Source of the DNA: Escherichia phage phiP4
Sequence record: PP993145.1
Strand: one strand, 5' to 3'
DNA: 64,000 nucleotides
Part shown: positions 2,018 to 58,827 of the stretch, one piece after another
Numbering within the stretch: position 1 is the stretch's first letter
Layout of the letters: every line of letters starts with the position of its first letter
Position numbers and translations under genes: made by a program
Notes under the pieces: model-generated
Told to the model about the DNA's origin: nothing
Database searches by the model: none
What the model saw: the letters and a program-made list of their open reading frames with translations, nothing else

Positions 2018-2117
2018 TTATCCAGTAGGATAAGCTGTGGATAAGTCTGTTAATAACGCCTCAAAATGGCTAGGGTTTTGTCAAGTCAAATCGTGCTGTT
2101 AATAAGTCTGTGGATAA
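2018..2117. promoter_or_regulatory. DnaA-box cluster: two perfect TGTGGATAA boxes (2036..2044, 2109..2117) plus a near-box TTATCCAGT (2018..2026)
   Basis: Exact 9-mer matches to the DnaA box consensus TTATCCACA (reverse complement) read directly. Confidence 0.6.
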
Positions 2118-44369: not shown

Positions 44370-45131
44370 TTACACCTTCCCCATGTCTTTAAAAATATCA
44401 TAGAATGCTTTAGACTCAACAGAACGAACGTTATCAATCAATTCGATCATTGAGAATGGGGCATTTTCGTATTTTTCATAGACTTCCATAAGGAGTGCTA
44501 GACCTGAGTCACCTTTAATGTCTTTCTGAGCTATATCTCCGCAGATAATTAAACGGCAGTCTTGTCCTACACGAGTTAGGAGACAAATCATTGCCTCAAC
44601 GGAAATATTCTGAGCTTCATCGACAATTACATAGGAGTTGTTGAAAGTTCTGCCACGAGCATGTTCGATAGCCAAAAATTTAATTTTCTGACGTTCGACA
44701 TATCCTTTATATGCATGATCGCCGATGGCCCATTTCATACCATCAGCTATTGGCTCCAACCAAGGCTCTAGCTTTTCCGCTAGATCACCAGGAAGCATAC
44801 CAAGAGACTTACCTAGAGGTTCATTAGGACGTACGAGAATCACTTGCTCAATATCTGAGTGAATGTCTACGAGTTCCTGAGCTGCAAGAACGGACGGAAT
44901 AAAGGTTTTACCAGTACCTGGCTCGCCGATACCCACAGTCACTGTGTTGTTCTTGATCATATTGATATATGATTTTTGCTCGCGGTTTTTACCTACTAGG
45001 GATTTAGCAACTGGGTTAGCGTAATCATTAGAAAAATCAGCCTGAATTACGTTGTTCTCATATTTGTTGCCACGCTTTCTTGAACCATTGCGGTTCTCTC
45101 TTTTTTGACGTGCTTTTCCCATAAATAACAC
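44370..45131 (-). CDS. phoH: PhoH-like ATPase (253 aa)
   Basis: Walker A GEPGTGKTF and Walker B-like ICGD, characteristic PhoH layout. Confidence 0.75.
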   Translation of the reverse strand: MLFMGKARQKRENRNGSRKRGNKYENNVIQADFSNDYANPVAKSLVGKNREQKSYINMIKNNTVTVGIGEPGTGKTFIPSVLAAQELVDIHSDIEQVILVRPNEPLGKSLGMLPGDLAEKLEPWLEPIADGMKWAIGDHAYKGYVERQKIKFLAIEHARGRTFNNSYVIVDEAQNISVEAMICLLTRVGQDCRLIICGDIAQKDIKGDSGLALLMEVYEKYENAPFSMIELIDNVRSVESKAFYDIFKDMGKV

Positions 45132-45416
45132 TCCTATAGTGTACTTCGCTAACAGAGGATCAACAAAAAGATCTTGTTTATCAACTTACAAATATATTAT
45201 ACCAATATATACAGTAAAAAGCAACTACAATTTTAAATAAGCCTATGATATTGCATTTAAATAAAAAATTTGCTTGCTTTTAACGTGAGATGTGTGATAC
45301 TAGATAATCATTTTATATCGCGTGCACGAGTGCGTGATTATACAATTTTTAATAGAGATTGGCAAATAAAATTTTTTGACTCAGATCATGTTACAGAACT
45401 TTATAGTAAAATATTG

Positions 45417-45445
45417 TTGACATCCGCCCTCGAATGAGTTATAAT
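45417..45445 (+). promoter_or_regulatory. sigma70 promoter TTGACA-N17-TATAAT upstream of nrdD
   Basis: Perfect consensus hexamers with 17-nt spacer. Confidence 0.65.
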
Positions 45446-45474
45446 AGTAGTCTTAGTTAGAGAAGGAGAGTATA

Positions 45475-47349
45475 ATGAATCGCAATGAAGAACTAAAGTA
45501 TAAAGAAATGCAGGCGTTAATTAGAAACTGCAAAGAGATTATCGAAGGGTCAGCAGATGAAGAGCTGCTGTTTAATAATGCTAATAAACCCTCAGAACGT
45601 TTCCCTACACAAAGGGATATGCTTGCAGGTGAGTTGAGTAAGTATCTGATTCTAGAAGAAATGCCAATTCAGATTCGAAATGCTCATATGATTGGGGATA
45701 TTCATTTCCATGATGCTGATTATGCTGCATTAGGCATGACTAACTGTTGCCTGGTAGCTCTGGAAGATATGTTAAAGAATGGTATGAAGGTTGGTAATGC
45801 TGAAATTAGCACTCCAAACTCTATCACTACTGCGGCGGCTATCACTGCTCAGATTATCACTCAAGTTAGCTCCCATCAGTATGGTGGTACTTCTGTAGAT
45901 CGCCTTGATGAAGTATTAGCCCCTTATGTTCGTAAATCCTATGACAAAAATCATGCGTTTGCAAAACGTTGGACTAAGGATGAAGCCAAAGCATCTGTAA
46001 TGGCTACGGAGATGACTGAAAAAGAAGTCTATGACGCTTGTCAGGGTTTAGAATATGAAATCAATACCATGTTTAACTCTAATGGTCAGAGTCCATTTAT
46101 TACCTTTGGTTTTGGTCTAGGAACTTCCTGGGAAGCACGTCTAGTACAGAAAGCAATACTGAAAGTACGCATGGATGGTTTAGGTATCAATAAACGTACA
46201 GCTATCTTCCCAAAACTGGTATTTGTACTTCGTGATGGCGTAAATATGAAACCAGGAGATGTTAATTATGACATCAAGAAGTTAGCTATGAAATGTACTG
46301 CTGAACGTATGTATCCAGATTATATCAGCTATGACAAAGTTGTAGAAGTTACTGGAGACTACAAAGTTTCTATGGGCTGCCGTTCATTCCTAGCTGCTAC
46401 AGAAGATGGTGAAACTGCCGGTCGTAATAACTTAGGTGTTGTTTCTGTAAACTTGCCTAGAATTGCTATCGAAGCTGAAGGAAATATTGACCTATTCTTT
46501 GATTTGCTTGAGCTACGTGTGGATACAGCATTAAAAGCGTTGGAGTGGAGAGTTGATCGCTTAAAATATATCCAAGCTAAAGCTGCACCCATCCTCTATA
46601 TGTCAGGAGCTTTTGGGTTACGCTTGGAGCCTGATGAATATGTATTCGATCATTTCTATAACCGTGCTTCTGTATCCCTAGGGTATATTGGTTGCCATGA
46701 AATGCTACAGTTCATGTTTGGCAAAGATGTAGACACAATGTCCGAGACCTGCATCAAGTTTGTTCAGCGTGTATTGCAGTACATGCGAGATAGGGTAGAT
46801 CAGAAGAAGGAAGAAACTAAGTTAGGTTATAGCCTATATGCTACACCATCGGAATCCCTATGCGATCGTTTTTGTCGTCTAGACCGTGAGTATTTCCCGG
46901 AGCATGAAGATATTCTGTCCAAAGGATACTACACTAACTCGCACCACCTTGATGTAGAACGTAAAGTTGCTCCTAACGTCAAATTTGATTATGAATCTAA
47001 CTTTACTCCGATTGCTTCTGGTGGGTGCATTTCCTATGTAGAACTACCAGATATGAAACGATTCCCAGATGCACTGGAATGGGTTATTAATTATGCCGCT
47101 AGTAAAGTTCATTACTTCGGTATCAATACTCCAGTGGATTCTTGTGGTAAATGTGGATTCTTAGGTGAAACAATAGCATCCGAGGATGGATTTAAGTGCC
47201 CTATCTGTGGTAATCATGACCCCGAAACTCTTGAAGTAACTCGTCGAGTTTGTGGGTATCTTGGAAATCCGGGTGCTCGTCCCTTTAACCCCGGCAAACA
47301 GCACGAGGTGATGGGCAGAGTGAAACATCAGGATATTCGAGCTAAATAA
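45475..47349 (+). CDS. nrdD: anaerobic ribonucleoside-triphosphate reductase (class III RNR, 624 aa)
   Basis: C-terminal glycyl radical motif RVCGYLG and Cys-rich zinc site (CGKCG ... CPICG). Confidence 0.8.
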   Translation: MNRNEELKYKEMQALIRNCKEIIEGSADEELLFNNANKPSERFPTQRDMLAGELSKYLILEEMPIQIRNAHMIGDIHFHDADYAALGMTNCCLVALEDMLKNGMKVGNAEISTPNSITTAAAITAQIITQVSSHQYGGTSVDRLDEVLAPYVRKSYDKNHAFAKRWTKDEAKASVMATEMTEKEVYDACQGLEYEINTMFNSNGQSPFITFGFGLGTSWEARLVQKAILKVRMDGLGINKRTAIFPKLVFVLRDGVNMKPGDVNYDIKKLAMKCTAERMYPDYISYDKVVEVTGDYKVSMGCRSFLAATEDGETAGRNNLGVVSVNLPRIAIEAEGNIDLFFDLLELRVDTALKALEWRVDRLKYIQAKAAPILYMSGAFGLRLEPDEYVFDHFYNRASVSLGYIGCHEMLQFMFGKDVDTMSETCIKFVQRVLQYMRDRVDQKKEETKLGYSLYATPSESLCDRFCRLDREYFPEHEDILSKGYYTNSHHLDVERKVAPNVKFDYESNFTPIASGGCISYVELPDMKRFPDALEWVINYAASKVHYFGINTPVDSCGKCGFLGETIASEDGFKCPICGNHDPETLEVTRRVCGYLGNPGARPFNPGKQHEVMGRVKHQDIRAK

Positions 47350-47861: not shown

Positions 47862-48051
47862 GGGTTTAAACGACGCTTTGGAAAACGCATTAATGCAGCA
47901 GTGGGAAACTGGCTATAAGGATGGTGTTGAATCCTGTGCTACTATGCTAGAAGTTATTGCTAATACCTTAATGGAGAAAGGCAATAAAGAATTAGCTGAG
48001 CTATTAGACAGTATTGGGCAAAACTTCAGAGAACAGGTGAAAAATGCGTAG
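47830..48051 (+). CDS. hypothetical protein (73 aa)
   Basis: ORF track. Confidence 0.45.
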   Translation: MAFSKLMLPDKGLNDALENALMQQWETGYKDGVESCATMLEVIANTLMEKGNKELAELLDSIGQNFREQVKNA

Positions 48052-48859
48052 ATTAATTATTATTAGTGGTGCAGGTTTGAGTGTTGAAAGTGGTGTACGA
48101 GCTTTTCGTACTGATACTGCTAGTGGTAAAGCATTGTGGGATGATTATGATCTAGAAGAGGTATGTAATATTCATGCCTTTCGTGGTAATTTTTATCATA
48201 AAACCCATATGTTTTACAACAAGCGTCGTGAAGAGCTAAAAACTGTTGAACCCAATCTTGCGCATTTGCGTATTGGTGAATGGTATAAACAATATCCAGG
48301 CCAAGTAGTAAACTTGACTACCAACGTTGATGACCTTATTGAGCGTGCTGGCGTTCCACATAGTGACATTCTGCACATTCACGGATATTTAAAAGAGGTT
48401 GTTGTAGCTGATAGCTACAATAGTAGCAATAAACGGATTATTGATGTAGGGTACAATTCTATTGATCCAGACGATTATAAATGGGTTAAACCTAATGTAA
48501 TCTTTTTTGGGGAGCATGCTCCAGCGTACGCAGAAATGTACAATGTTTTTGATGGTATTACCAGTCAAGATATGATCGTTGTGGTTGGTTGCTCTAACCA
48601 AGTAATTAACTTCTACTGGGAATTATTTCCTGTTCTTAATTTGACTGCTGCCAAGCTAATGGTTGTTAACTACTATGATAGTGCCCTAGCGGCGGAACCG
48701 AGCTATCAAGGTATGACTCGTAGTGAGATGTACCAGCTGGAAGAACGCGGTATCCCTTACTGGAGTAAAGGTGCGGTAGATGCTTTCAGTGATCCTGATT
48801 TTATTGCTCGTGTAGAAGCTCATTTAGAGGGTAGACCTTATGTGTCAGGAAATAAGTAA
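48044..48859 (+). CDS. Sir2-family (sirtuin-like) NAD-dependent protein (271 aa)
   Basis: N-terminal GAGLSVESGVRAFR resembles the sirtuin NAD-binding motif GAGIS.ESGI..FR. Confidence 0.6.
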   Translation: MRRLIIISGAGLSVESGVRAFRTDTASGKALWDDYDLEEVCNIHAFRGNFYHKTHMFYNKRREELKTVEPNLAHLRIGEWYKQYPGQVVNLTTNVDDLIERAGVPHSDILHIHGYLKEVVVADSYNSSNKRIIDVGYNSIDPDDYKWVKPNVIFFGEHAPAYAEMYNVFDGITSQDMIVVVGCSNQVINFYWELFPVLNLTAAKLMVVNYYDSALAAEPSYQGMTRSEMYQLEERGIPYWSKGAVDAFSDPDFIARVEAHLEGRPYVSGNK

Positions 48860-49352
48860 TACTCCAATTATTTTTCTAGACATTGATGGGGTGCTCAATT
48901 CGAGCATCTCCCAATATCATGCGCCTGATGATGAAAAGATTTTCTTTGGAAGTGATTGGGTTTTCAAACCGCTTCTCAAGGCTTTTCAGGACTTTATTCG
49001 TCCTTCTCCAATAATGATTGTTGGAGTATCATCTTGGTTCTCTGTCAGAAATGAGATGGAGAACGTTCAGATTATGACCGGATTAGGTCTTATCGATCGT
49101 TTTCTTGGTACAACGGATTTTACTGGGGGTGGATTATCTAGGGGTAATTCTGTTCTTCGCTTCGTTGAAAAGCATAAGCTCAAACATTGGTGTGTGCTTG
49201 ATGATGCGGGTGCTATGATGTATCAGTATCCAACGGTTATAGTCAACGGTAGGACTGGAATAAATCTTCAAGATTTAAGAGCTGTTAGCTATATGTTAGA
49301 ATTTAGTCCGGATCTTGAAATGTGTAAATCCTTACAACAATTTAAGGTGTAA
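48840..49352 (+). CDS. HAD-superfamily phosphatase-like protein (170 aa)
   Basis: Motif I FLDIDGVLN near the N-terminus. Confidence 0.5.
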   Translation: MCQEISNTPIIFLDIDGVLNSSISQYHAPDDEKIFFGSDWVFKPLLKAFQDFIRPSPIMIVGVSSWFSVRNEMENVQIMTGLGLIDRFLGTTDFTGGGLSRGNSVLRFVEKHKLKHWCVLDDAGAMMYQYPTVIVNGRTGINLQDLRAVSYMLEFSPDLEMCKSLQQFKV

Positions 49353-49354
49353 AT

Positions 49355-49783
49355 ATGTTCAACAATGTATTCTCTAAAGAAGCTAACCCAATTTTGGTTA
49401 ACTTTTGGCGTACTCTCCCAGCTAGCCTGTATAATGAGACTATTAACTCTTTGAAAATATGGTGTGAGAATAACGAAATCTCCTTTGCTTTTAAAGATGA
49501 TATTGATGAGGCTCCCTGTATTGGTTTAATTGTTCAGGTAGAGGAGGGTCTTGAAGAGATTGTCGGCTGGAAAGAGTTAGATGAAATGGGCTTAGTTTTT
49601 GCATTAAACTATAAGCTGTTTATGCCTGCTAAGCATCGCCTCGTTGTTAACTATAAAACTAGTGAATCTCCTGGTTTTCAGGTTAATGAACGTTATGGTT
49701 GGTCTTACTCACCGGAAGAAGTAAATGAGGGGATTCAGAAACTTCGACGTTTCGGGTATATGATCCCAGGTTTAACTGCTTAA
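49355..49783 (+). CDS. hypothetical protein, tandem paralog A (142 aa)
   Basis: Shares blocks with the next ORF (DEAPCIG/DDPCVG, MGLVFALN/MGLIVALN, PGL C-terminus). Confidence 0.5.
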   Translation: MFNNVFSKEANPILVNFWRTLPASLYNETINSLKIWCENNEISFAFKDDIDEAPCIGLIVQVEEGLEEIVGWKELDEMGLVFALNYKLFMPAKHRLVVNYKTSESPGFQVNERYGWSYSPEEVNEGIQKLRRFGYMIPGLTA

Positions 49784-49792
49784 GGAGGCAGA

Positions 49793-50185
49793 ATGGAACA
49801 AGTATATTGGCGTCAGATTGATCCTAGTTTGGTGAAACGTGCGGAGAAGCTGCTACAACGTTGGTTGGGGGTAAGACAAGCCTCCTTCACTTTTCCGGAG
49901 CAGCAAATAGATGATCCCTGTGTTGGTGTTTTCCTATCCGGCTACGCGGGGGGATGGGAGTTGGATTGGAATGAATTGTCTGCTATGGGCTTGATTGTTG
50001 CCCTAAACTTCTCTTTGTTCCATCCACGTGGTTTGGCCATATGTCGTGTGCCGGATGATGGTTGTTCGCCATATCTTTTACAGGTGGAAGATGATATTTG
50101 GGAGTACACTCCAGATATTCTCGCAGAAGCTAAAGAACAATTAAATCGTGTTGGGATTTATGTTCCGGGCCTAAATGATGAATGA
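49793..50185 (+). CDS. hypothetical protein, tandem paralog B (130 aa)
   Basis: Paralogous to the previous ORF. Confidence 0.5.
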   Translation: MEQVYWRQIDPSLVKRAEKLLQRWLGVRQASFTFPEQQIDDPCVGVFLSGYAGGWELDWNELSAMGLIVALNFSLFHPRGLAICRVPDDGCSPYLLQVEDDIWEYTPDILAEAKEQLNRVGIYVPGLNDE

Positions 50186-50276
50186 TTTTTATTAGCTCAA
50201 CTCTGATTACCGAGTCATTTTGGCTCGGTTTTATCCGTACTCAAGACCAATGATAGCACCATCCGGAAAATTTTAC

Positions 50277-50305
50277 TTGCAGGATGCCCAAAATCTTGAT
50301 ATAAT
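50277..50305 (+). promoter_or_regulatory. sigma70-type promoter (TTGCAG-N17-TATAAT) about 500 nt upstream of the large ATPase gene
   Basis: Hexamers and spacer read directly. Confidence 0.5.
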
Positions 50306-50804
50306 ATTTATATTGAATTGAGAGACATTAGTAAAAATTGATTTTGCTAATTTTTCTTGTTTACAATCCGCGATACGGAACAGTTAGGCTGCCCCATTAA
50401 GGGTTGTTTTAACTGTTACGTGTTAGTTTTTAAACAAATAGTTAATAGAATACTTAGCGATCTACATCCCGTAGGAACCCTGGTAAGGCCTCGAAGCAAC
50501 CTAGTGTGAGGTGGTTGTGAAGTGAGACGGGAGGAGTGAAAAACTCCGAGAAGTGATGACGTAAGGTATACTGCATCTAGTATGAGCTAGTACATGAAGC
50601 ATTAGGTGAGCAAATCTGGCTTAGCGGCCATCCTCAAGGATTTGTGCGGTATAGTGAAGCGGCAGTGTAGCGTGAAAGTGGAAGTTGCCACCCCACTTCA
50701 GTATTTGCAATTAATTTGTTGAGAAATTGACAGTAACAGTTGTTCTATTCTTTCTGAATAGTCCTAAAGAAAACTTATTTCATTTCCAACACAGGAGTAT
50801 TGTT

Positions 50805-53594
50805 GTGTTCTCAATCCTACAAGGTCATGCAGGATTTCATCGCGACTTAGCCACAGGCATTTGGCGAGAAGTTAAAGCAGAAGACTATCTTTTTGCTAAA
50901 AGATTTTCCTCAAAGCATCCTGAAGGTAAACCAGCTTCAATGCCCTTCAAGTTTGATGTAATTGATGAAGTTGATCCTCAAACCCTAGTAGAAATGCTCC
51001 CTCTTATGAGACGTTTAACGTCTGACCCTCATATCGTTGCGGTACGAGGTCGATGTCTTGCACCTAAAAATAATGTGCGACGTAAGAAGGGCAACTTTAA
51101 TGTATCTAATCCAAGTCATATAATTGCAATGGATGTGGATGGTATTGTAGATACAGGTGGTTGTAACAAGTTTGATCTTGTTGGCATGGCTCGACATATT
51201 ATTAGAATGTTAAATAGTATTAGTGAGGATATGTTTCCTCTTGATGCAGGGTTTATCGCTCATGCATCGTCTTCGGCTGGGCTAAAACCAGGTATCCGAA
51301 TGCACTTAATACTAGAATCTAATGTTAAGGTAACTCAGGGTCAAATCAAGTTCTTATTTACATCTATCAACGAAAGTAGTAGACAAAAGTATGGCTTTGA
51401 TATTGCCGACTTAGCTTATTACTCTTCCGTACAGCTCCATTATTTCGCAGATCCGTTATTTACTGATGGTATAGTAGATCCGTTTAAAGCGGAGGGTGCT
51501 TCACGTCTGGTATTTGTTAAGGGTTCTAAAGTAAATTTACCAAATAATCTGGTTGACTATGAAACAACTAGAGGTGAGTTTAAGGAGGAGTTTTACTCTT
51601 TACTCGATCAAATTAAAGGTAAAAAAGCTGCCTCTGATAAAGTAGAGGAAACTATCAGCGAACTAGAAGAAGCTGAGGATGGAGTGTATCTACGTATCAT
51701 ACCTAAACTCTATCACAGAGCTTTAGAGGATGGTGTTGATTTTGCATGGCTAGAAAAAGAAATCCGTCCAGCCTTATCAGAATATATTGCAACTAAAGAT
51801 AATAGTCGTAATATTCAAGATTACTTTAATAATGGTCGTAAACAGGCTCTGAAGGCGTTTGTTAATAATTCTAAACGCGATATACCTGATGTTTTAAAAG
51901 GTATTCCACTTAAAAAGCTAGAAACTAATTCTCTAGAAACTGATAACTTCTTGAAATTAAATACTGTACCACCAGAAGGTTATATGACTTTTGTAAAAGC
52001 AAGTCTAGGTACAGGTAAAACTACGGCGGTTGTGCGTTGGTTAGATTCAGGAGTTATTAAAGGTAATTTCTTAGCAATTACCAACACTCGAGCACTGGTA
52101 TCTTCAAATGCTAAGAAATTTAGTGCAGGACAATATGATAAGTCTGTAGATATGCTTAATTTTAAGCGTGGCGCTATTGACCGTATGTCCACAACTATTC
52201 ACTCTTTGCATAAGTTCAAGAGTTTTATTGGTCAAATTGATGCAATCTTTATCGATGAATGTGATGCTGTAATGAATGACCTATTATTCGCCCCGGTTGT
52301 TAAACAACGTCGTGAATGTATTCAGGTTCTTCGGGATATTCTTGCAACTGCAAAAATTATTATATTATCTGATGGGGATATTAGTGCAGAAACAATTGAA
52401 GCATATGGTTCTTTGATTGAGTTCGATAAACCGGTTGCATTTTATAATCATCACCGTAAAATGCTATCAAAAGCTCATGCTTATGAGTTCCCGGATGAAT
52501 CCAGTATTTGGGTTGCACTTCAGACTTCTCTAGAAATGGGTGAGAAATCTATTCTGGTATCTGATTGTGGTCCTGATGAACTGAATGAGAAGGGTATGGC
52601 ACTGCGTCGTAATACGGGTGCATTAGTTAAGGAAATCCACTCAAACTCTACGTCTGATGTAGATATTCGACGTATTCTGGATTACACAACTAATGAGCTA
52701 ATTGACCAACAAATTGATTGCTTATTATGTAGTCCATCCGTAACGAGTGGTGTTGACTTCAACTACTTTGATAACGTATTCGTTATTACTAGAACTAGTA
52801 ATCAAGCGCCAAACATGCGTTTCCAAGCAATCAGGCGCGACCGTGGCGCTCAGAACATTTATTATTTTATTGATAAATCTACTAGTGGATTCTCTGCAGG
52901 TTCTGAACAATATAACATTGATGAAGGTTGGCTGGAGTTAGCACAGCAATTATACGCACGTCGTAGGGAGCTGGAGTCTAGGAACTATACTAGTACTTTA
53001 CGTTATTACTTGCTTGATCAGGGTGCAACTATTGATATTTTCAGTGAAAGCTGGGGAACTATCGAAGGTGCAGGAAAAGAGTATACGGAAGAGCGAATCA
53101 AAGCTATTTTGTATTCAACTCCTGATTATTGTGCTCCACGCCATGCAGATGCGTATGAAGCTAAACTACTTCTTGTTCGCTATTATCATCTTGAGTCTAT
53201 TAAAGATGTAACAGTTGAGCACGTTGAACAATATATCAAGGATAAACCGAATGATCGAGCGGCATTCTTCCATAAAATGCACGAGATGTTCTGGGAAGAT
53301 ATTAAGAAGTGTTCAAATGTCACTATCAAACCATTCATAGAAGCTCTGAAAGGTAAGAAGAAAGATTTCTTCCTTAAAACAGGCCAGAGTGCTAACCCAA
53401 AATATGCAAGAATGTATCTTGGTATGATGGGTATTGGTAAGGATATGAACACGGAGAATATTGTAGACTGGTACAGAACCTATTGTAAAATCGAGTGTAT
53501 GCCAATCCCGTATAAGTTTATGACTGATGAGGAGAAACATATGCATGATGAAGCAATGGCAGAGCTAGGTGCTAGAAATGACAGTGAAGAATAA
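50805..53594 (+). CDS. large P-loop NTPase, putative replication helicase or origin-binding protein (track ORF 50727..53594; GTG start at 50805)
   Basis: Walker A SLGTGKTT, Walker B-like FIDECD; AGGAG RBS before GTG. Confidence 0.6.
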   Translation: MFSILQGHAGFHRDLATGIWREVKAEDYLFAKRFSSKHPEGKPASMPFKFDVIDEVDPQTLVEMLPLMRRLTSDPHIVAVRGRCLAPKNNVRRKKGNFNVSNPSHIIAMDVDGIVDTGGCNKFDLVGMARHIIRMLNSISEDMFPLDAGFIAHASSSAGLKPGIRMHLILESNVKVTQGQIKFLFTSINESSRQKYGFDIADLAYYSSVQLHYFADPLFTDGIVDPFKAEGASRLVFVKGSKVNLPNNLVDYETTRGEFKEEFYSLLDQIKGKKAASDKVEETISELEEAEDGVYLRIIPKLYHRALEDGVDFAWLEKEIRPALSEYIATKDNSRNIQDYFNNGRKQALKAFVNNSKRDIPDVLKGIPLKKLETNSLETDNFLKLNTVPPEGYMTFVKASLGTGKTTAVVRWLDSGVIKGNFLAITNTRALVSSNAKKFSAGQYDKSVDMLNFKRGAIDRMSTTIHSLHKFKSFIGQIDAIFIDECDAVMNDLLFAPVVKQRRECIQVLRDILATAKIIILSDGDISAETIEAYGSLIEFDKPVAFYNHHRKMLSKAHAYEFPDESSIWVALQTSLEMGEKSILVSDCGPDELNEKGMALRRNTGALVKEIHSNSTSDVDIRRILDYTTNELIDQQIDCLLCSPSVTSGVDFNYFDNVFVITRTSNQAPNMRFQAIRRDRGAQNIYYFIDKSTSGFSAGSEQYNIDEGWLELAQQLYARRRELESRNYTSTLRYYLLDQGATIDIFSESWGTIEGAGKEYTEERIKAILYSTPDYCAPRHADAYEAKLLLVRYYHLESIKDVTVEHVEQYIKDKPNDRAAFFHKMHEMFWEDIKKCSNVTIKPFIEALKGKKKDFFLKTGQSANPKYARMYLGMMGIGKDMNTENIVDWYRTYCKIECMPIPYKFMTDEEKHMHDEAMAELGARNDSEE

Positions 53595-57293: not shown

Positions 57294-58067
57294 TTGATGA
57301 AAATCGAAATTCCAACACAATGTCCCTCTTGTGGTTCTAAGCTAGATCTTGTCAACGGACAATTATTCTGTCGGAATAAGTCCAACTGTCCAGCGCAATC
57401 AAGTAAGTTAATTGAGAACTTCTGTACAAAAATGAAGTTAAAGGGCTTTGGTCCGAAAACTATTGAGAAGCTGGAGCTGACGAAGATTTCAGAACTATTT
57501 TACCTAACCGAAGAAGATTTGGTTAGAGCCGTGGGTAGCAAGGTTGCCGCTAAGTTAATTAGCGAATTAAATACTAAAGTTCGCGGAGACATTGACTTTG
57601 GTTCAGTTCTCGGTTCTTTAGGAATCCCTCTAATCGGAGAGGTTGCAGCAAAGAAATTATCCCAAAATTGCACTAGCTTCCACGATGTGAAGGCTGACGG
57701 CAAGGCTGGAGAAAACTACAAAGCCTGGCTAAATTCCCCACAAGGCAAGGATGTTATCGAACTACCGTGGAAATTCTCAACTGGTGCTAAAGCTAAAACC
57801 GTCGTTACTGATGATTTAGTTGCCCAGCCAAATGGAATCGTGGTATGTATTACCGGATCTTTGCAAGATTTTGCAAATCGAACGGATGCAACAAACTATT
57901 TAGAAAGTCTAGGATATACGGTTAAGAAATCCGTTACCAAAGACGTCAAATACCTAATCTGTGAGGATGAATCAAAACGTTCCTCCTCATCTTATAAGAA
58001 AGCCGAAACGAATGGGATAGAAATCCTGTCGATTAAAGAACTATTGGAGAAAAATAATAATGTCTAA
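57294..58067 (+). CDS. NAD-dependent DNA ligase, C-terminal zinc-finger/HhH/BRCT part of a split enzyme (257 aa)
   Basis: Cys4 zinc finger CPSCGSKL ... CRNKSNCPAQ followed by HhH-like and BRCT-like regions. Confidence 0.7.
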   Translation: MMKIEIPTQCPSCGSKLDLVNGQLFCRNKSNCPAQSSKLIENFCTKMKLKGFGPKTIEKLELTKISELFYLTEEDLVRAVGSKVAAKLISELNTKVRGDIDFGSVLGSLGIPLIGEVAAKKLSQNCTSFHDVKADGKAGENYKAWLNSPQGKDVIELPWKFSTGAKAKTVVTDDLVAQPNGIVVCITGSLQDFANRTDATNYLESLGYTVKKSVTKDVKYLICEDESKRSSSSYKKAETNGIEILSIKELLEKNNNV

Positions 58068-58827
58068 ACTGAACTGGAACGTAGAAGGTGTAACCGAGTC
58101 TCTGAAAGCAAAAGCCACTGCTCTGGGTGTTGCTGTAATCTCTCAAGAACAAGTAGCTGCTATCGCTGCTGAACTGGCCGCTGAAACTGGCAAAGATGTT
58201 ACCGCTCGCTCTGTTGGCTCTAAACTGCGTAAAGAAGGTTTTGAAGTACAGAAAGCTAATGAAGTACAGAAATCTCCGTGGACTCCTGAGCAGGAAGCTG
58301 AACTGGTTGATTTCCTGAACGCTCATGCTGGTCAGTATACCTATGCTGAAATCGCTGCTGCTGTAGCTGGTGGTCAGTTCGGTGCTAAGCAGGTACAGGG
58401 TAAGATCCTGAGTCTGGAAATGACCGCTTCTGTTAAGCCAACCGAAAAAGCTGCTGCTGTTCGTTCCTTCACTCCGGATGAAGAAACTGATTTTGTTAAT
58501 CAGGTTGTTGCCGGTGCTACTATTGAAGCTATCGCTGCTCACTTCGGTCGCAATATTAAGCAGATCCGTGGTAAAGCTCTGAGCCTGCTTCGTGAAGGTC
58601 GTATCGCTGCTATGCCGGTACAGGAAACTTCAAGTGCTAAAACTCGTGAAGATCTGTTAGAAGGTCTGGATCTGGTTAACATGACTGTTGCTGAGATCGC
58701 TGAGAAAACTGGTAAGTCTGAGCGTGGTGTTAAATCTATGCTGTCTCGTCGTGGTCTGGTTGCTAAGGACTATGATGGTGCCGCTAAGCGTGCTAAACTG
58801 GATGCAAAAGCTGCGGCTGCTGAATAA
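58060..58827 (+). CDS. Ala-rich abundant early protein, possible DNA-binding protein (255 aa)
   Basis: Codon usage shifts to high-expression codons (GCT, CGT, CTG, GAA). Confidence 0.5.
   Translation: MSKLNWNVEGVTESLKAKATALGVAVISQEQVAAIAAELAAETGKDVTARSVGSKLRKEGFEVQKANEVQKSPWTPEQEAELVDFLNAHAGQYTYAEIAAAVAGGQFGAKQVQGKILSLEMTASVKPTEKAAAVRSFTPDEETDFVNQVVAGATIEAIAAHFGRNIKQIRGKALSLLREGRIAAMPVQETSSAKTREDLLEGLDLVNMTVAEIAEKTGKSERGVKSMLSRRGLVAKDYDGAAKRAKLDAKAAAAE

What the first reader, a model, noticed from the sequence alone, without database searches (positions are those of the whole stretch)
50306..50804. 500-nt purine-rich untranslated leader upstream of the large P-loop ATPase
Between the promoter at 50277..50305 and the GTG start at 50805 there is no ORF. 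The segment 50500..50720 is conspicuously G/A-rich with repeated GTGA/AGTGA units, unlike the AT-rich surroundings, suggesting a structured regulatory RNA, a protein-binding array or an origin-like element.
Basis: seen in the sequence. Interest (0 to 1): 0.6.

Follow-up and report, generated by a model that had tools for sequence, protein, structure and literature searches.

The report
Conserved structured leader RNA before T5 helicase
The "empty" 500 bases in front of the phage T5-type replication helicase gene (D2, the herpes-UL9-like "origin-binding protein") encode a large folded RNA that is kept across T5-like phages by compensating mutations, matches no catalogued RNA family and has no known function.

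Summary
The window is a T5-like phage (Tequintavirus). Window 50306-50804 is the untranslated 5' leader of the early mRNA for D2, the UL9-like "replication origin binding" SF2 helicase. An extended -10 promoter lies at 50277-50305. There is no conserved ORF. The middle is G/A-rich (58% purine) and GTGA occurs 8 times against 1.4 expected.

The leader holds a conserved structured RNA:
- a 5' stem-loop;
- a conserved motif (50372-50397);
- a roughly 40-bp long-range helix (50409-50451 with 50702-50742);
- a 243-nt multi-helix core (50459-50701) carrying an invariant loop, CUUAGCGG.

Covariation is strong. On a sequence-only alignment 94% of cells pair, and 32 of 72 pairs show double changes, against 2-8 in slid controls. 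G.U pairs outnumber A.C by 92 to 7, so the + strand is the folded one. A covariance model finds it once in the window, and at the same place in Klebsiella-phage loci, in Pectobacterium phage My1 and, weakly, in T5.

Rfam gives no match, and the T5 reference records annotate nothing here. There are no iterons, DnaA boxes, antisense promoter, terminator or tRNA-like fold. I read it as a new structured leader or processed ncRNA. The mechanism (RNase III-type processing, factor binding, or a role at the origin) is inferred, not shown.

The parts
50209..50234 (+). Intrinsic terminator hairpin plus T-run that ends the upstream operon (Sir2 / HAD_SAK_2 / DUF7415 genes).
   Evidence: Sequence ACCGAGTCATTTTGGCTCGGTTTTAT. 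Conserved in relatives. T5 record AY543070 annotates a rho-independent terminator at the homologous place.
50277..50305 (+). Early sigma-70 promoter: TTGCAG, 17 nt, then extended -10 TGaTATAAT. Inferred transcription start near 50312.
   Evidence: invariant. A promoter is annotated at the homologous position in AY543070 and AY692264. The start site is inferred, not mapped.
50319..50359 (+). 5'-proximal stem-loop of the leader (GAGAGAcAUUAGUAAAA / UUUUGCUAAUuUUUCUU).
   Evidence: MFE fold. A hairpin of different sequence sits at the same place in the Klebsiella-phage, Providencia-phage, L065 and My1 loci (sequences).
50372..50397 (+). Conserved leader motif GAUACGGAACAGUUAGGCUGCCCCAU.
   Evidence: Invariant in both sequence types of Tequintavirus and Epseptimavirus, and near-identical in L065, My1 and the Klebsiella-phage loci. 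The pattern search of IMG/VR returns only T5-like contigs plus 3 chance coding hits.
50409..50451 (+). 5' arm of the long-range closing helix.
   Evidence: RNAduplex of the core's flanks gives -32.2 kcal/mol against -14.4 +/- 3.5 for shuffles. Equally strong arms of different sequence occur in T5, L065 and My1; they are weaker in L081 and the Klebsiella-phage locus. Compensatory AACUGUUAC/GUAACAGUU to AACUAUUAC/GUAAUAGUU. Inverted repeats I1 and I7.
50459..50701 (+). 243-nt multi-helix core (14 helices, 72 pairs). P1 is 50462-50467 with 50665-50670.
   Evidence: RNAalifold. Model R1 gives 283 bits and is the only hit in the 64-kb window. Covariation counts. Strand asymmetry.
50548..50555 (+). 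Junction GAGAAGUG; AGAnGUG is unpaired and conserved in five lineages.
   Evidence: Invariant columns AGA and GUG of the model alignment A4.
50611..50644 (+). Hairpin P3b: a covarying stem (CAAAUCU / GGAUUUG) closing a loop that begins GGCUUAGCGGCC (50618-50629). CUUAGCGG is invariant.
   Evidence: Helix 12: all 7 pairs show double changes. CUUAGCGG is invariant in alignment A4 and in type B. It is also a hairpin loop in the Providencia, Proteus and Aeromonas phage loci.
50676..50698 (+). 3' hairpin AAGUGG[AAGUUGCCACC]CCACUU, with loop consensus ..U..CCA.C.
   Evidence: Helix 14: 5 pairs show double changes. AAGGGG/CCCCUU variants.
50702..50742 (+). 3' arm of the long-range closing helix.
50745..50761 (+). 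Small hairpin CUAUUC-UUUCU-GAAUAG directly after the closing helix.
   Evidence: Conserved in types A and B. A hairpin of different sequence lies at the same place in the Klebsiella-phage locus, L065 and L081 (sequences).
50793..50807 (+). Shine-Dalgarno AGGAG and the GTG start of D2.
   Evidence: Annotated RBS and CDS start in relatives.
50805..53594 (+). D2 / 'replication origin binding protein', a UL9-like SF2 helicase of 929 aa.
   Evidence: Pfam PF02399 over residues 394-533. PHROG 3712. PDB herpesvirus OBP chains. AY692264 names the gene D2. Wong et al. 2013, PMC3632103.

Best explanation
Window 50312-50804 is the 5' leader of the early D2 (UL9-like origin-binding helicase) mRNA of a T5-like phage. 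It carries a conserved structured RNA that has not been annotated.

Anatomy (shown). A 5' stem-loop is followed by a sequence-conserved motif. A roughly 40-bp long-range helix then encloses a 243-nt, 14-helix core with an invariant loop, CUUAGCGG. After the helix come a small hairpin and an unstructured A/U-rich stretch that leads to the Shine-Dalgarno sequence and GTG.

How it most likely works (inferred). It acts as RNA, on or from the D2 transcript.
1. The long near-continuous duplex is the kind of substrate RNase III cuts, as at the rRNA precursor stems and the T7 early-mRNA sites. It would excise or insulate the core and define a mature D2 mRNA.
2. The 5' end of that mature mRNA would be protected by the conserved small hairpin.
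3. The core, through its invariant loop and junction, would bind a factor that sets how much D2 is made. The candidates are a protein (possibly D2 itself) or a small ligand.

It would also make this long untranslated leader a poor Rho substrate.
For: Identity and context:
- T5-like phage: 523 phage records match.
- The downstream gene is D2/OBP.
- The promoter and terminator are annotated in T5, with nothing annotated in the gap.

Structure:
- RNAalifold on 9 sequences gives 72 pairs, 32 of them with compensatory changes.
- On that MAFFT-only alignment 94.2% of cells pair, and 32 pairs show double changes against 2-8 for slid partners and 8.8 for shuffles.
- With 18 distinct sequences, 49 of 72 pairs show double changes, against 9-18 slid.
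- The T5/Eps7 type independently shows 6 double changes and a single broken cell.
- G.U cells number 92 against 7 A.C, so the + strand folds: 94% paired against 81% for the minus strand.

Homology:
- Model R1 hits the window once.
- It finds the Klebsiella-phage loci full-length at E about 1e-7, a metagenomic relative at 129 bits, and T5-type loci full-length at the homologous place at E 0.0025-0.05.

Long helix:
- -32 kcal/mol against -14 for shuffles, and present with different sequence in every lineage.

Leader architecture:
- No terminator lies between promoter and D2.
- The leader is 16% C and 24% G.

Distribution:
- In the loci examined the element lies directly upstream of the D2 gene and on the same strand.
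Against: Nothing here shows processing, factor binding or regulation.
- No alternative pairing that would sequester the Shine-Dalgarno sequence or form a terminator is conserved. The one mutually exclusive hairpin (50375-50386 with 50410-21) is weakened in most type B phages and absent in L065.
- The structured part ends about 30 nt before the Shine-Dalgarno sequence, unlike classical translational operators.
- In Proteus phage Stubb a consensus-like promoter lies between the RNA region and D2.
- In Aeromonas phage TS3 a strong terminator lies between a 1.3-kb non-coding stretch carrying the same loop motif and the obp gene. If these are true homologues, the RNA does not need to be part of the D2 mRNA.
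- The single-sequence fold z-score is only about -3.
Confidence: 0.5

Rival explanations
1. Stand-alone, trans-acting ncRNA. The leader is only a delivery vehicle. The core, cut out at the long helix, accumulates as a stable RNA of about 250-340 nt that binds a host or phage factor. This could be a decoy for a defence or RNA-metabolism protein, or a cofactor of a phage enzyme. D2 expression is not its target.
For: - The size and complexity (14 helices, an invariant loop and junction) resemble orphan large ncRNAs more than operators.
- An rRNA-like flanking helix is present.
- In Aeromonas phage TS3 the non-coding stretch with CUUAGCGG hairpins ends in a strong terminator before obp.
- In Stubb and L065, promoter-like sequences overlap the 3' end of the RNA.
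- The core is exchanged between lineages as a cassette: core identity to T5 is 0.64, while D2 is 0.86 and the flanks 0.85-0.91.
Against: - In the loci examined it stays glued to the D2 gene in the same orientation, which suggests a cis relationship.
- No terminator follows it in Tequintavirus.
- Homology of the TS3 and Stubb regions rests on short motifs; model scores there are at noise level.
Confidence: 0.2
2. Replication-origin element. Transcription from the early promoter through this G-rich region activates or primes an origin next to the initiator gene, as a ColE1 RNA II-like or T4/T7-like primer or R-loop. Alternatively the unwound + strand DNA folds into hairpins recognised by the D2 helicase or the primase, like herpes OriS* bound by UL9 or the single-strand initiation signals of plasmids.
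For: - It lies directly upstream of the UL9-like origin-binding helicase gene.
- GC skew in the core is positive, up to 0.48, and its flanks are AT-rich (29-34% GC).
- T5 is reported to use multiple internal origins (cited in PMC3632103).
- An invariant loop in a covarying stem is also the pattern of hairpin-type origins (my own knowledge).
- Type A and type B cassettes could be specificity variants.
Against: - No iterons and no DnaA boxes in the leader.
- No antisense promoter.
- The cumulative GC-skew minimum is at 45243, the point where transcription diverges, not here.
- Fourteen nested helices with long-range pairs 200-330 nt apart, and 14% G.U cells, fit RNA better than transient ssDNA.
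- A translated gene follows at once.
Confidence: 0.15
3. Metabolite- or ion-sensing riboswitch that tunes helicase synthesis to the cell's state, for example the nucleotide pool.
For: It sits in a 5' leader. It has a covarying multi-helix fold with invariant unpaired nucleotides in junctions and loops.
Against: - No Rfam riboswitch matches even at E <= 10.
- No conserved expression platform was found.
- The core is swapped for a very different sequence version in sister phages, which is unusual for a ligand pocket.
- It is very large.
Confidence: 0.08
4. A DNA-level protein-binding array (GTGA units as binding sites), or a missed small protein gene.
For: GTGA is enriched, 8 against 1.4 expected. 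Short ORFs exist, and some records annotate 'hypothetical proteins' here.
Against: - No direct-repeat family.
- The GTGA units lie in stems, loops and junctions of the fold. I did not count GTGA in type B, but by eye its alignment shows no comparable run of GTGA units.
- The ORFs differ in frame, length and presence between lineages, and similarity tracks only the conserved nucleotide motif.
- Substitutions come in compensating pairs rather than at third codon positions.
Confidence: 0.03

Closest known systems
RNase III processing stems: rRNA precursor helices flanking 16S/23S, and phage T7 early-mRNA sites such as R0.3 ahead of gene 0.3 (my own knowledge)
   Same: A long, nearly continuous duplex is formed by sequences that flank a structured RNA or sit in an early-promoter leader just ahead of the first gene. 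The duplex is kept by covariation, here at -29 to -41 kcal/mol across six lineages.
   Different: Cleavage is not shown. The enclosed RNA is neither rRNA nor tRNA. The T7 leaders are not known to hold a conserved 240-nt fold.
Large orphan structured ncRNAs, some of them phage-borne: GOLLD, ROOL, OLE, raiA, HEARO
   Same: Several hundred nucleotides, many helices, strong covariation, phage context and unknown biochemical role.
   Different: No Rfam model matches. This one is embedded in an mRNA leader. Among the collections searched it was found only in T5-like phages (Demerecviridae), always next to one gene.
ColE1 RNA II pre-primer and other transcript-activated origins (T4 oriF/oriG, T7 primary origin)
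   Same: A roughly 500-nt structured, G-rich transcript from a strong sigma-70 promoter, next to replication functions, whose structure is kept while the sequence drifts into distinct types.
   Different: There is no antisense RNA I-type promoter. No origin has been mapped here. A translated gene follows. The GC-skew minimum is elsewhere.
Translational operators of phage replication genes (T4 gene 32 pseudoknot, T4 gene 43 hairpin)
   Same: A structured element in the leader of a replication-protein mRNA, followed by an unstructured A/U-rich stretch up to the ribosome binding site.
   Different: It is ten times larger. It does not overlap the ribosome binding site. Binding by the gene product is untested.
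Riboswitch aptamers
   Same: Position in a leader, a closing helix, and invariant junction and loop nucleotides.
   Different: No expression platform was found, there is no known ligand, no family matches, and the version is replaced like a cassette between sister phages.

Membership tests
Any Rfam 15 family | Covariance-model score at or above the family's gathering threshold | tested here: not met
   In the whole window only the tRNAs pass. Permissive scans of 50100-50900 and 50440-50720 give only chance-level hits of 17 bits or less, to snoRNA and TMV models.
Riboswitch | Conserved aptamer fold supported by covariation | tested here: met
   72 pairs, of which 32-49 show double changes.
Riboswitch | Expression platform: a conserved alternative pairing that forms a terminator or hides the ribosome binding site | tested here: not met
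   No terminator in the leader. The ribosome binding site lies in an unpaired A/U-rich stretch. The only competing hairpin (I2) is not conserved.
Riboswitch | Specific ligand binding | not testable with these tools
   Needs in-line probing or ITC.
ColE1-type RNA II / transcript-primed origin | Long structured transcript from a constitutive promoter | tested here: met
   Promoter at 50277-50305 and a structured leader of about 490 nt.
ColE1-type RNA II / transcript-primed origin | Antisense regulator RNA promoter inside the 5' part | tested here: not met
   No minus-strand promoter-like site within 50186-50810 at the scanner's threshold.
ColE1-type RNA II / transcript-primed origin | Persistent RNA-DNA hybrid, RNase H cut and DNA start at the 3' end | not testable with these tools
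   Needs DRIP-seq or origin mapping. The GC-skew minimum lies at 45243, not here, which is weak evidence against.
Iteron-type origin / protein-binding array | Three or more direct repeats of a binding site | tested here: not met
   No direct-repeat families in 50186-50810. GTGA is enriched as a 4-mer only.
Iteron-type origin / protein-binding array | DnaA boxes or an AT-rich unwinding element | tested here: inconclusive
   No DnaA-box match in the leader. The flanks are AT-rich (29-34% GC), but they form the RNA's closing helix.
RNase III processing site | At least about 20 bp of near-continuous double-stranded RNA | tested here: met
   Blocks of 10, 11, 11 and 5 bp separated by 1- to 4-nt bulges.
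RNase III processing site | RNase III-dependent cleavage in vivo or in vitro | not testable with these tools
   Needs end mapping in wild-type and rnc hosts.
tRNA / tmRNA-like element | Cloverleaf detectable by ARAGORN or the Rfam tRNA model | tested here: not met
   All 22 tRNAs lie at 19.5-31.6 kb and none is near 50 kb.
Small protein gene | ORF conserved in frame, with a start codon and a ribosome binding site | tested here: not met
   ORFs of 20-50 aa differ between lineages. The one overlapping the conserved motif is 50 aa here, 21 aa in T5, and has no start codon in that frame in L065 (read from the sequence; one search lists only other-frame ORFs there). There is no Shine-Dalgarno sequence before it.
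Autogenous translational operator (T4 gene 32/43 type) | Operator overlaps or abuts the ribosome binding site and is bound by the gene product | tested here: inconclusive
   The structured part ends at 50761, 32 nt before the Shine-Dalgarno sequence. Binding cannot be tested here.

The most novel reading that the evidence does not exclude
The core is a new class of large structured RNA that takes part in starting T5 DNA replication. It would be made from the leader of the initiator gene and recognised, through the invariant CUUAGCGG loop, by the UL9-like D2 helicase. It would serve as an RNA cofactor, loading platform or primer precursor. Its two very different sequence versions (type A here, type B in T5) would be interchangeable specificity cassettes exchanged between co-infecting phages.
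Probability: 0.12. Interest if true: 0.9.

Novelty: new variant of a known kind. Interest (0 to 1): 0.62.

Why it matters
T5 is a classical model phage. How its replication starts is still unknown, and so is how its UL9-like helicase is controlled. The gap before D2 holds no annotated feature beyond the promoter in the two T5 reference records, and most relatives listed have none or only 'hypothetical proteins'.

A folded RNA of about 340 nt, or about 440 nt with its flanking elements, supported by covariation and tied to that gene across several genera, gives a concrete handle that can be tested by mutation. The possible outcomes are a new regulatory or processing module for a replication initiator, a new phage ncRNA class, or an RNA-linked origin.

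It also shows cassette-like exchange of a non-coding RNA between otherwise 85-90% identical phages.

For annotation, the 'hypothetical proteins' called in this gap in some records are probably spurious.

Tried and rejected
**Known RNA families.** Rfam at gathering and at permissive thresholds gave nothing. ARAGORN found no tRNA-like fold.

**Origin features.**
- No direct repeats or iterons.
- No DnaA boxes in the leader.
- The cumulative GC-skew minimum is at 45243, where transcription diverges, so it gives no support for an origin at 50.5 kb.

**Antisense promoter and terminators.** Neither was found in the leader. The one + strand promoter-like hit (50338-50367) lies inside the 5' stem-loop and is at chance frequency.

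**Small ORFs.** None is conserved.

**Antiterminator idea.** Hairpin 50375-50386/50410-50421 competes with the closing helix. I rejected it as a conserved switch because most type B phages carry a C.A mismatch in it while compensating in the closing helix, and L065 lacks it.

**Alternative pairings.**
- Kissing or pseudoknot pairing of the 3' hairpin loop GUUGCC with GCAAC: rejected, since GCAACC pairs locally with covariation (helix 6).
- Pairing of junction GAAGUG with the 3' hairpin: not conserved.

**Leads from memory.**
- Resemblance of ACAUCCCGUAGG to the NAD+ (nadA) riboswitch core: no Rfam support.
- Resemblance of AGCGGCCAA to a class II tRNA D-loop: not tested further.

**Sites complementary to the loop.** These lie at 57547 and 58781, in ligB and a Myb-like factor gene. 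Both encode Ala-Ala-Lys in stretches 100% identical to T5, so they are uninformative and probably chance.

**T5 nick sites.** The nicks are in the minus strand (PMC10644984), and no positions were available.

**Database reach.**
- The metagenome scan by D2 protein gave only 10 loci, one of them a new lineage.
- The 5.8-billion-protein search for the D2 N-terminus gave only 2 fragments, so I attempted no structure prediction of that domain.

**Literature.** Full-text searches found no paper on this leader, no T5 transcriptome map and no mapped T5 origin. Bourguignon 1976 is not held.

Full report
**What the window is**

The 64-kb window carries 22 tRNA genes at 19.5-31.6 kb. The query region matches 523 phage records at 80-99% identity, mostly from Salmonella, Escherichia and Klebsiella phages, with T5-like phages (Tequintavirus) as the best matches.

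The gene that starts with GTG at 50805 has three lines of identification:
- a Herpes_ori_bp (PF02399) match over residues 394-533;
- a full-length match to PHROG 3712, 'replication origin binding';
- matches to solved herpesvirus origin-binding proteins.

T5 record AY692264 names it D2. Wong et al. 2013 characterised D2 as a bipolar SF2 helicase with PF02399 at residues 392-532 and suggested a role in initiation (PMC3632103).

The upstream operon encodes Sir2, a HAD_SAK_2 domain protein and two DUF7415 proteins. It ends at 50185 and is followed by a terminator hairpin at 50209-50234.

**Checking the observation**

- The promoter is TTGCAG, 17 nt, then TG-n-TATAAT at 50277-50305. It is invariant in relatives and is annotated as a promoter in both T5 records. 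The simple scanner missed it because the -35 matches only 3 of 6.
- Between the promoter and the GTG there are only ORFs of 20-50 aa.
- Window 50500-50720 is 57.9% purine (96.6th percentile of the window) and 46% GC, against 29-34% GC on either side.
- GTGA occurs 8 times against 1.4 expected.

The GTGA units do not form a repeat family.

**Conservation pattern**

Aligning the gap with Lindwurm, Eps7, DT571/2 and Shivani showed near-invariant flanks (roughly 50306-50430 and 50733-50804). The middle exists in two very different versions:
- type A: this phage, Lindwurm and others;
- type B: T5, Eps7 and DT57-like phages.

The middle contains invariant islands such as GGCUUAGCGGCC.

I fetched 32 loci from IMG/VR with the D2 protein and three further lineages with an alignment of D2 proteins. 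A metagenome scan added 10 loci. These brought in Klebsiella-phage loci (73% D2 identity), two unnamed lineages (L065 and L081, 70%), Pectobacterium phage My1 (67%), Proteus phage Stubb (64%) and Providencia phages (about 60%).

**Covariation**

Compensating changes were visible by eye:
- P1: CUACAU/GUGUAG, CUGCGU/GCGCAG and CUGUGU/GCACAG;
- closing helix: AACUGUUAC/GUAACAGUU and AACUAUUAC/GUAAUAGUU;
- 3' hairpin: AAGUGG/CCACUU and AAGGGG/CCCCUU.

The counts are as follows.

| Alignment | Pairs with both sides changed | Cells paired | Controls |
|---|---|---|---|
| 9 type A, L065 and My1 sequences, MAFFT only (A3, window 50459-50701) | 32 of 72 | 94.2% | 2-8 pairs and 37-45% paired with slid partners; 8.8 pairs in shuffles |
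| 18 distinct sequences aligned to the model (A4) | 49 of 72 | 95.1% | 9-18 pairs with slid partners |
| Type B alone, T5-like against Eps7-like (A5) | 6 | one broken cell | nearly every substitution in the core is half of a compensating pair |

G.U cells outnumber A.C cells 92 to 7. The strand with the sense of the promoter and of D2 is therefore the folded one: 94% paired, against 81% for the complement.

**Homology search with the model**

Covariance model R1 (243 positions) gave these results:

| Target | Result |
|---|---|
| The 64-kb window | one hit, 283 bits |
| L065 / My1 / L081 | 162 / 156 / 129 bits |
| Klebsiella-phage loci | full length, 28-30 bits, E about 1e-7 |
| T5 and other type B loci, filters off | full length at the homologous place, 10-14 bits, E 0.0025-0.05 |

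Types A and B share the same topology:
- P1;
- a 5' multi-hairpin domain;
- a purine-rich junction;
- a long P3 stem with two hairpins, the second presenting GGCUUAGCGGCC;
- a 3' hairpin.

**Anatomy in window coordinates**

| Coordinates | Element |
|---|---|
| about 50312 | inferred transcription start |
| 50319-50359 | 5' stem-loop |
| 50372-50397 | conserved motif GAUACGGAACAGUUAGGCUGCCCCAU |
| 50409-50451 with 50702-50742 | closing helix |
| 50459-50701 | core |
| 50548-50555 | junction GAGAAGUG |
| 50611-50644 | P3b hairpin, invariant CUUAGCGG at 50620-50627 |
| 50676-50698 | 3' hairpin |
| 50745-50761 | small hairpin |
| 50793-50797 | Shine-Dalgarno sequence |
| 50805 | GTG start |

The closing helix scores -32.2 kcal/mol against -14.4 +/- 3.5 for shuffled arms. 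It is -36 in T5, -41 in L065 and -40 in My1, and weaker relative to shuffles in L081 (-30) and the Klebsiella-phage locus (-29). The single-sequence MFE reproduces the closing helix and several hairpins, with z about -3.

**Distribution**

- The 5' motif pattern, searched across 2.9 million viral contigs, returned 32 T5-like contigs and three unrelated coding hits.
- A hairpin whose loop begins (G)CUUAGCGG also occurs upstream of the D2 homologue in Providencia phages and in Proteus phage Stubb, whose annotators noted an 'empty low gene density area' there.
- It occurs twice in a 1.6-kb non-coding stretch of Aeromonas phage TS3 (D2 identity only 25%), where a strong terminator separates that stretch from obp. 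Model scores for these three are at noise level, so their homology is only suggested.
- Two Vibrio phage loci lack the motif.

**Cassette-like behaviour**

| Comparison with this phage | 5' flank | Core | 3' flank | D2 (first 900 nt) |
|---|---|---|---|---|
| T5 | 0.91 | 0.64 | 0.85 | 0.86 |
| L065 | 0.71 | 0.73 | 0.63 | 0.71 |

Against L065 the core and D2 differ to a similar degree. The type A core scores far higher with the L065, My1 and L081 lineages than with T5, which is discordant with the helicase. So the core has either been exchanged between lineages or has evolved unusually fast while keeping its fold.

**What it is not**

- No Rfam family matches.
- No tRNA-like fold.
- No iterons and no DnaA boxes in the leader.
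- No antisense promoter and no terminator in the leader.
- No conserved small ORF.
- The cumulative GC-skew minimum lies at 45243, where transcription diverges, not at the element.
- Apart from the terminator and promoter, the two T5 reference records annotate nothing in the gap between the upstream gene and D2.
- Six full-text searches found no description of it.

**Mechanism**

What is shown: a conserved, strand-specific, multi-helix RNA fold sits in the leader of the D2 mRNA.

What is inferred:
1. The roughly 40-bp near-continuous closing helix is the kind of duplex that RNase III cuts at rRNA precursor stems and T7 early-mRNA sites.
2. The small hairpin kept immediately downstream in several lineages would then cap and protect the new 5' end of the D2 mRNA.
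3. The invariant loop and junction are likely contact points for a factor.
4. The C-poor composition (16% C, 24% G) fits a long untranslated leader that must escape Rho.

Three things cannot be decided here: whether the core regulates D2 in cis, acts in trans after excision, or serves replication initiation. The rival explanations give my weights.

The lack of a conserved expression platform counts against a simple riboswitch or operator. So do the promoter in Stubb and the terminator in TS3, both of which lie between the RNA region and the gene. The strict linkage to D2 counts against a purely independent ncRNA.

**Verdict**

The finding is real. Its 'structured RNA' reading is well supported, and the 'array' reading is not. 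The 'origin' reading stays open. The element appears to be an undescribed RNA family of T5-like phages, in a classical model phage.

Noticed in passing
window 2036-2117 (- strand): Four DnaA-box-like 9-mers lie within 82 bp. Two are perfect (TTATCCACA at 2036 and 2109) and are interleaved with TTATTAACA at 2048 and 2097, which looks like a duplicated unit. This may be the repeat and DnaA-box region near the T5 injection-stop signal (my own recollection).
   Followed up: no
L003 (DT571/2) 1074-1171; also L006, L026, L035; insertion point = window 50358/50359: A 98-nt insertion with its own inverted repeat (TTTACGG...CCGTAAA) sits directly after the 5' stem-loop of the leader. It occurs in some phages of both RNA types (A and B), so it looks like a small mobile or recombining insert.
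   Followed up: partly
L004 (Shivani) 502-954 and about 980-1030; also L011, L016, L023: An HNH homing-endonuclease gene is inserted between the upstream gene and the leader. It brings its own T5-type promoter and a duplicate of the leader's 5' stem-loop sequence. The structured RNA downstream is untouched.
   Followed up: partly
L073 (Aeromonas phage vB_AdhS_TS3) 219-1808: A 1.6-kb stretch with no annotated gene lies between the divergent nrdD gene and obp. It holds two hairpins presenting (G)CUUAGCGG in the loop (698, 942), a GUUGCCUCC motif, and a strong intrinsic terminator at about 1683-1725, just before obp. It may be a much larger stand-alone relative of the T5 leader RNA.
   Followed up: partly
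L068/L084 (Proteus phage Stubb) 1680-2500: An 820-nt low-gene-density region upstream of obp carries only dubious small ORFs. It contains a CCUUAGCGGG hairpin loop at 2091 and a consensus-like promoter (TTGACA-17-TATAAT) directly before the obp ribosome binding site.
   Followed up: partly
window 45131-45475: A divergent intergenic region: minus-strand genes end at 45131 and plus-strand genes begin at 45475. It coincides with the minimum of cumulative GC skew (45243). It is a candidate for a replication or transcription switch point, separate from the finding.
   Followed up: no
window 57547-57554 and 58781-58788 (+ strand): Two sites in the ligB and Myb-like transcription-factor genes are complementary to 9-10 nt of the invariant loop (GCCGCUAAG). 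Both encode Ala-Ala-Lys and lie in stretches identical to T5, so this is probably chance.
   Followed up: yes
window 48044-50185: The operon ending just before the leader encodes a Sir2-family protein, a HAD domain of the 'Swiss Army Knife' RNA-repair type, and two DUF7415 proteins. This is an RNA-repair and NAD-related neighbourhood next to a large ncRNA.
   Followed up: no
phage records PP892525, NC_103213, OR515477, PP554578 and others at the homologous gap: Several public records annotate two to four 'hypothetical proteins' inside this leader. Given the covariation pattern and the lack of ORF conservation, these calls are probably spurious.
   Followed up: partly
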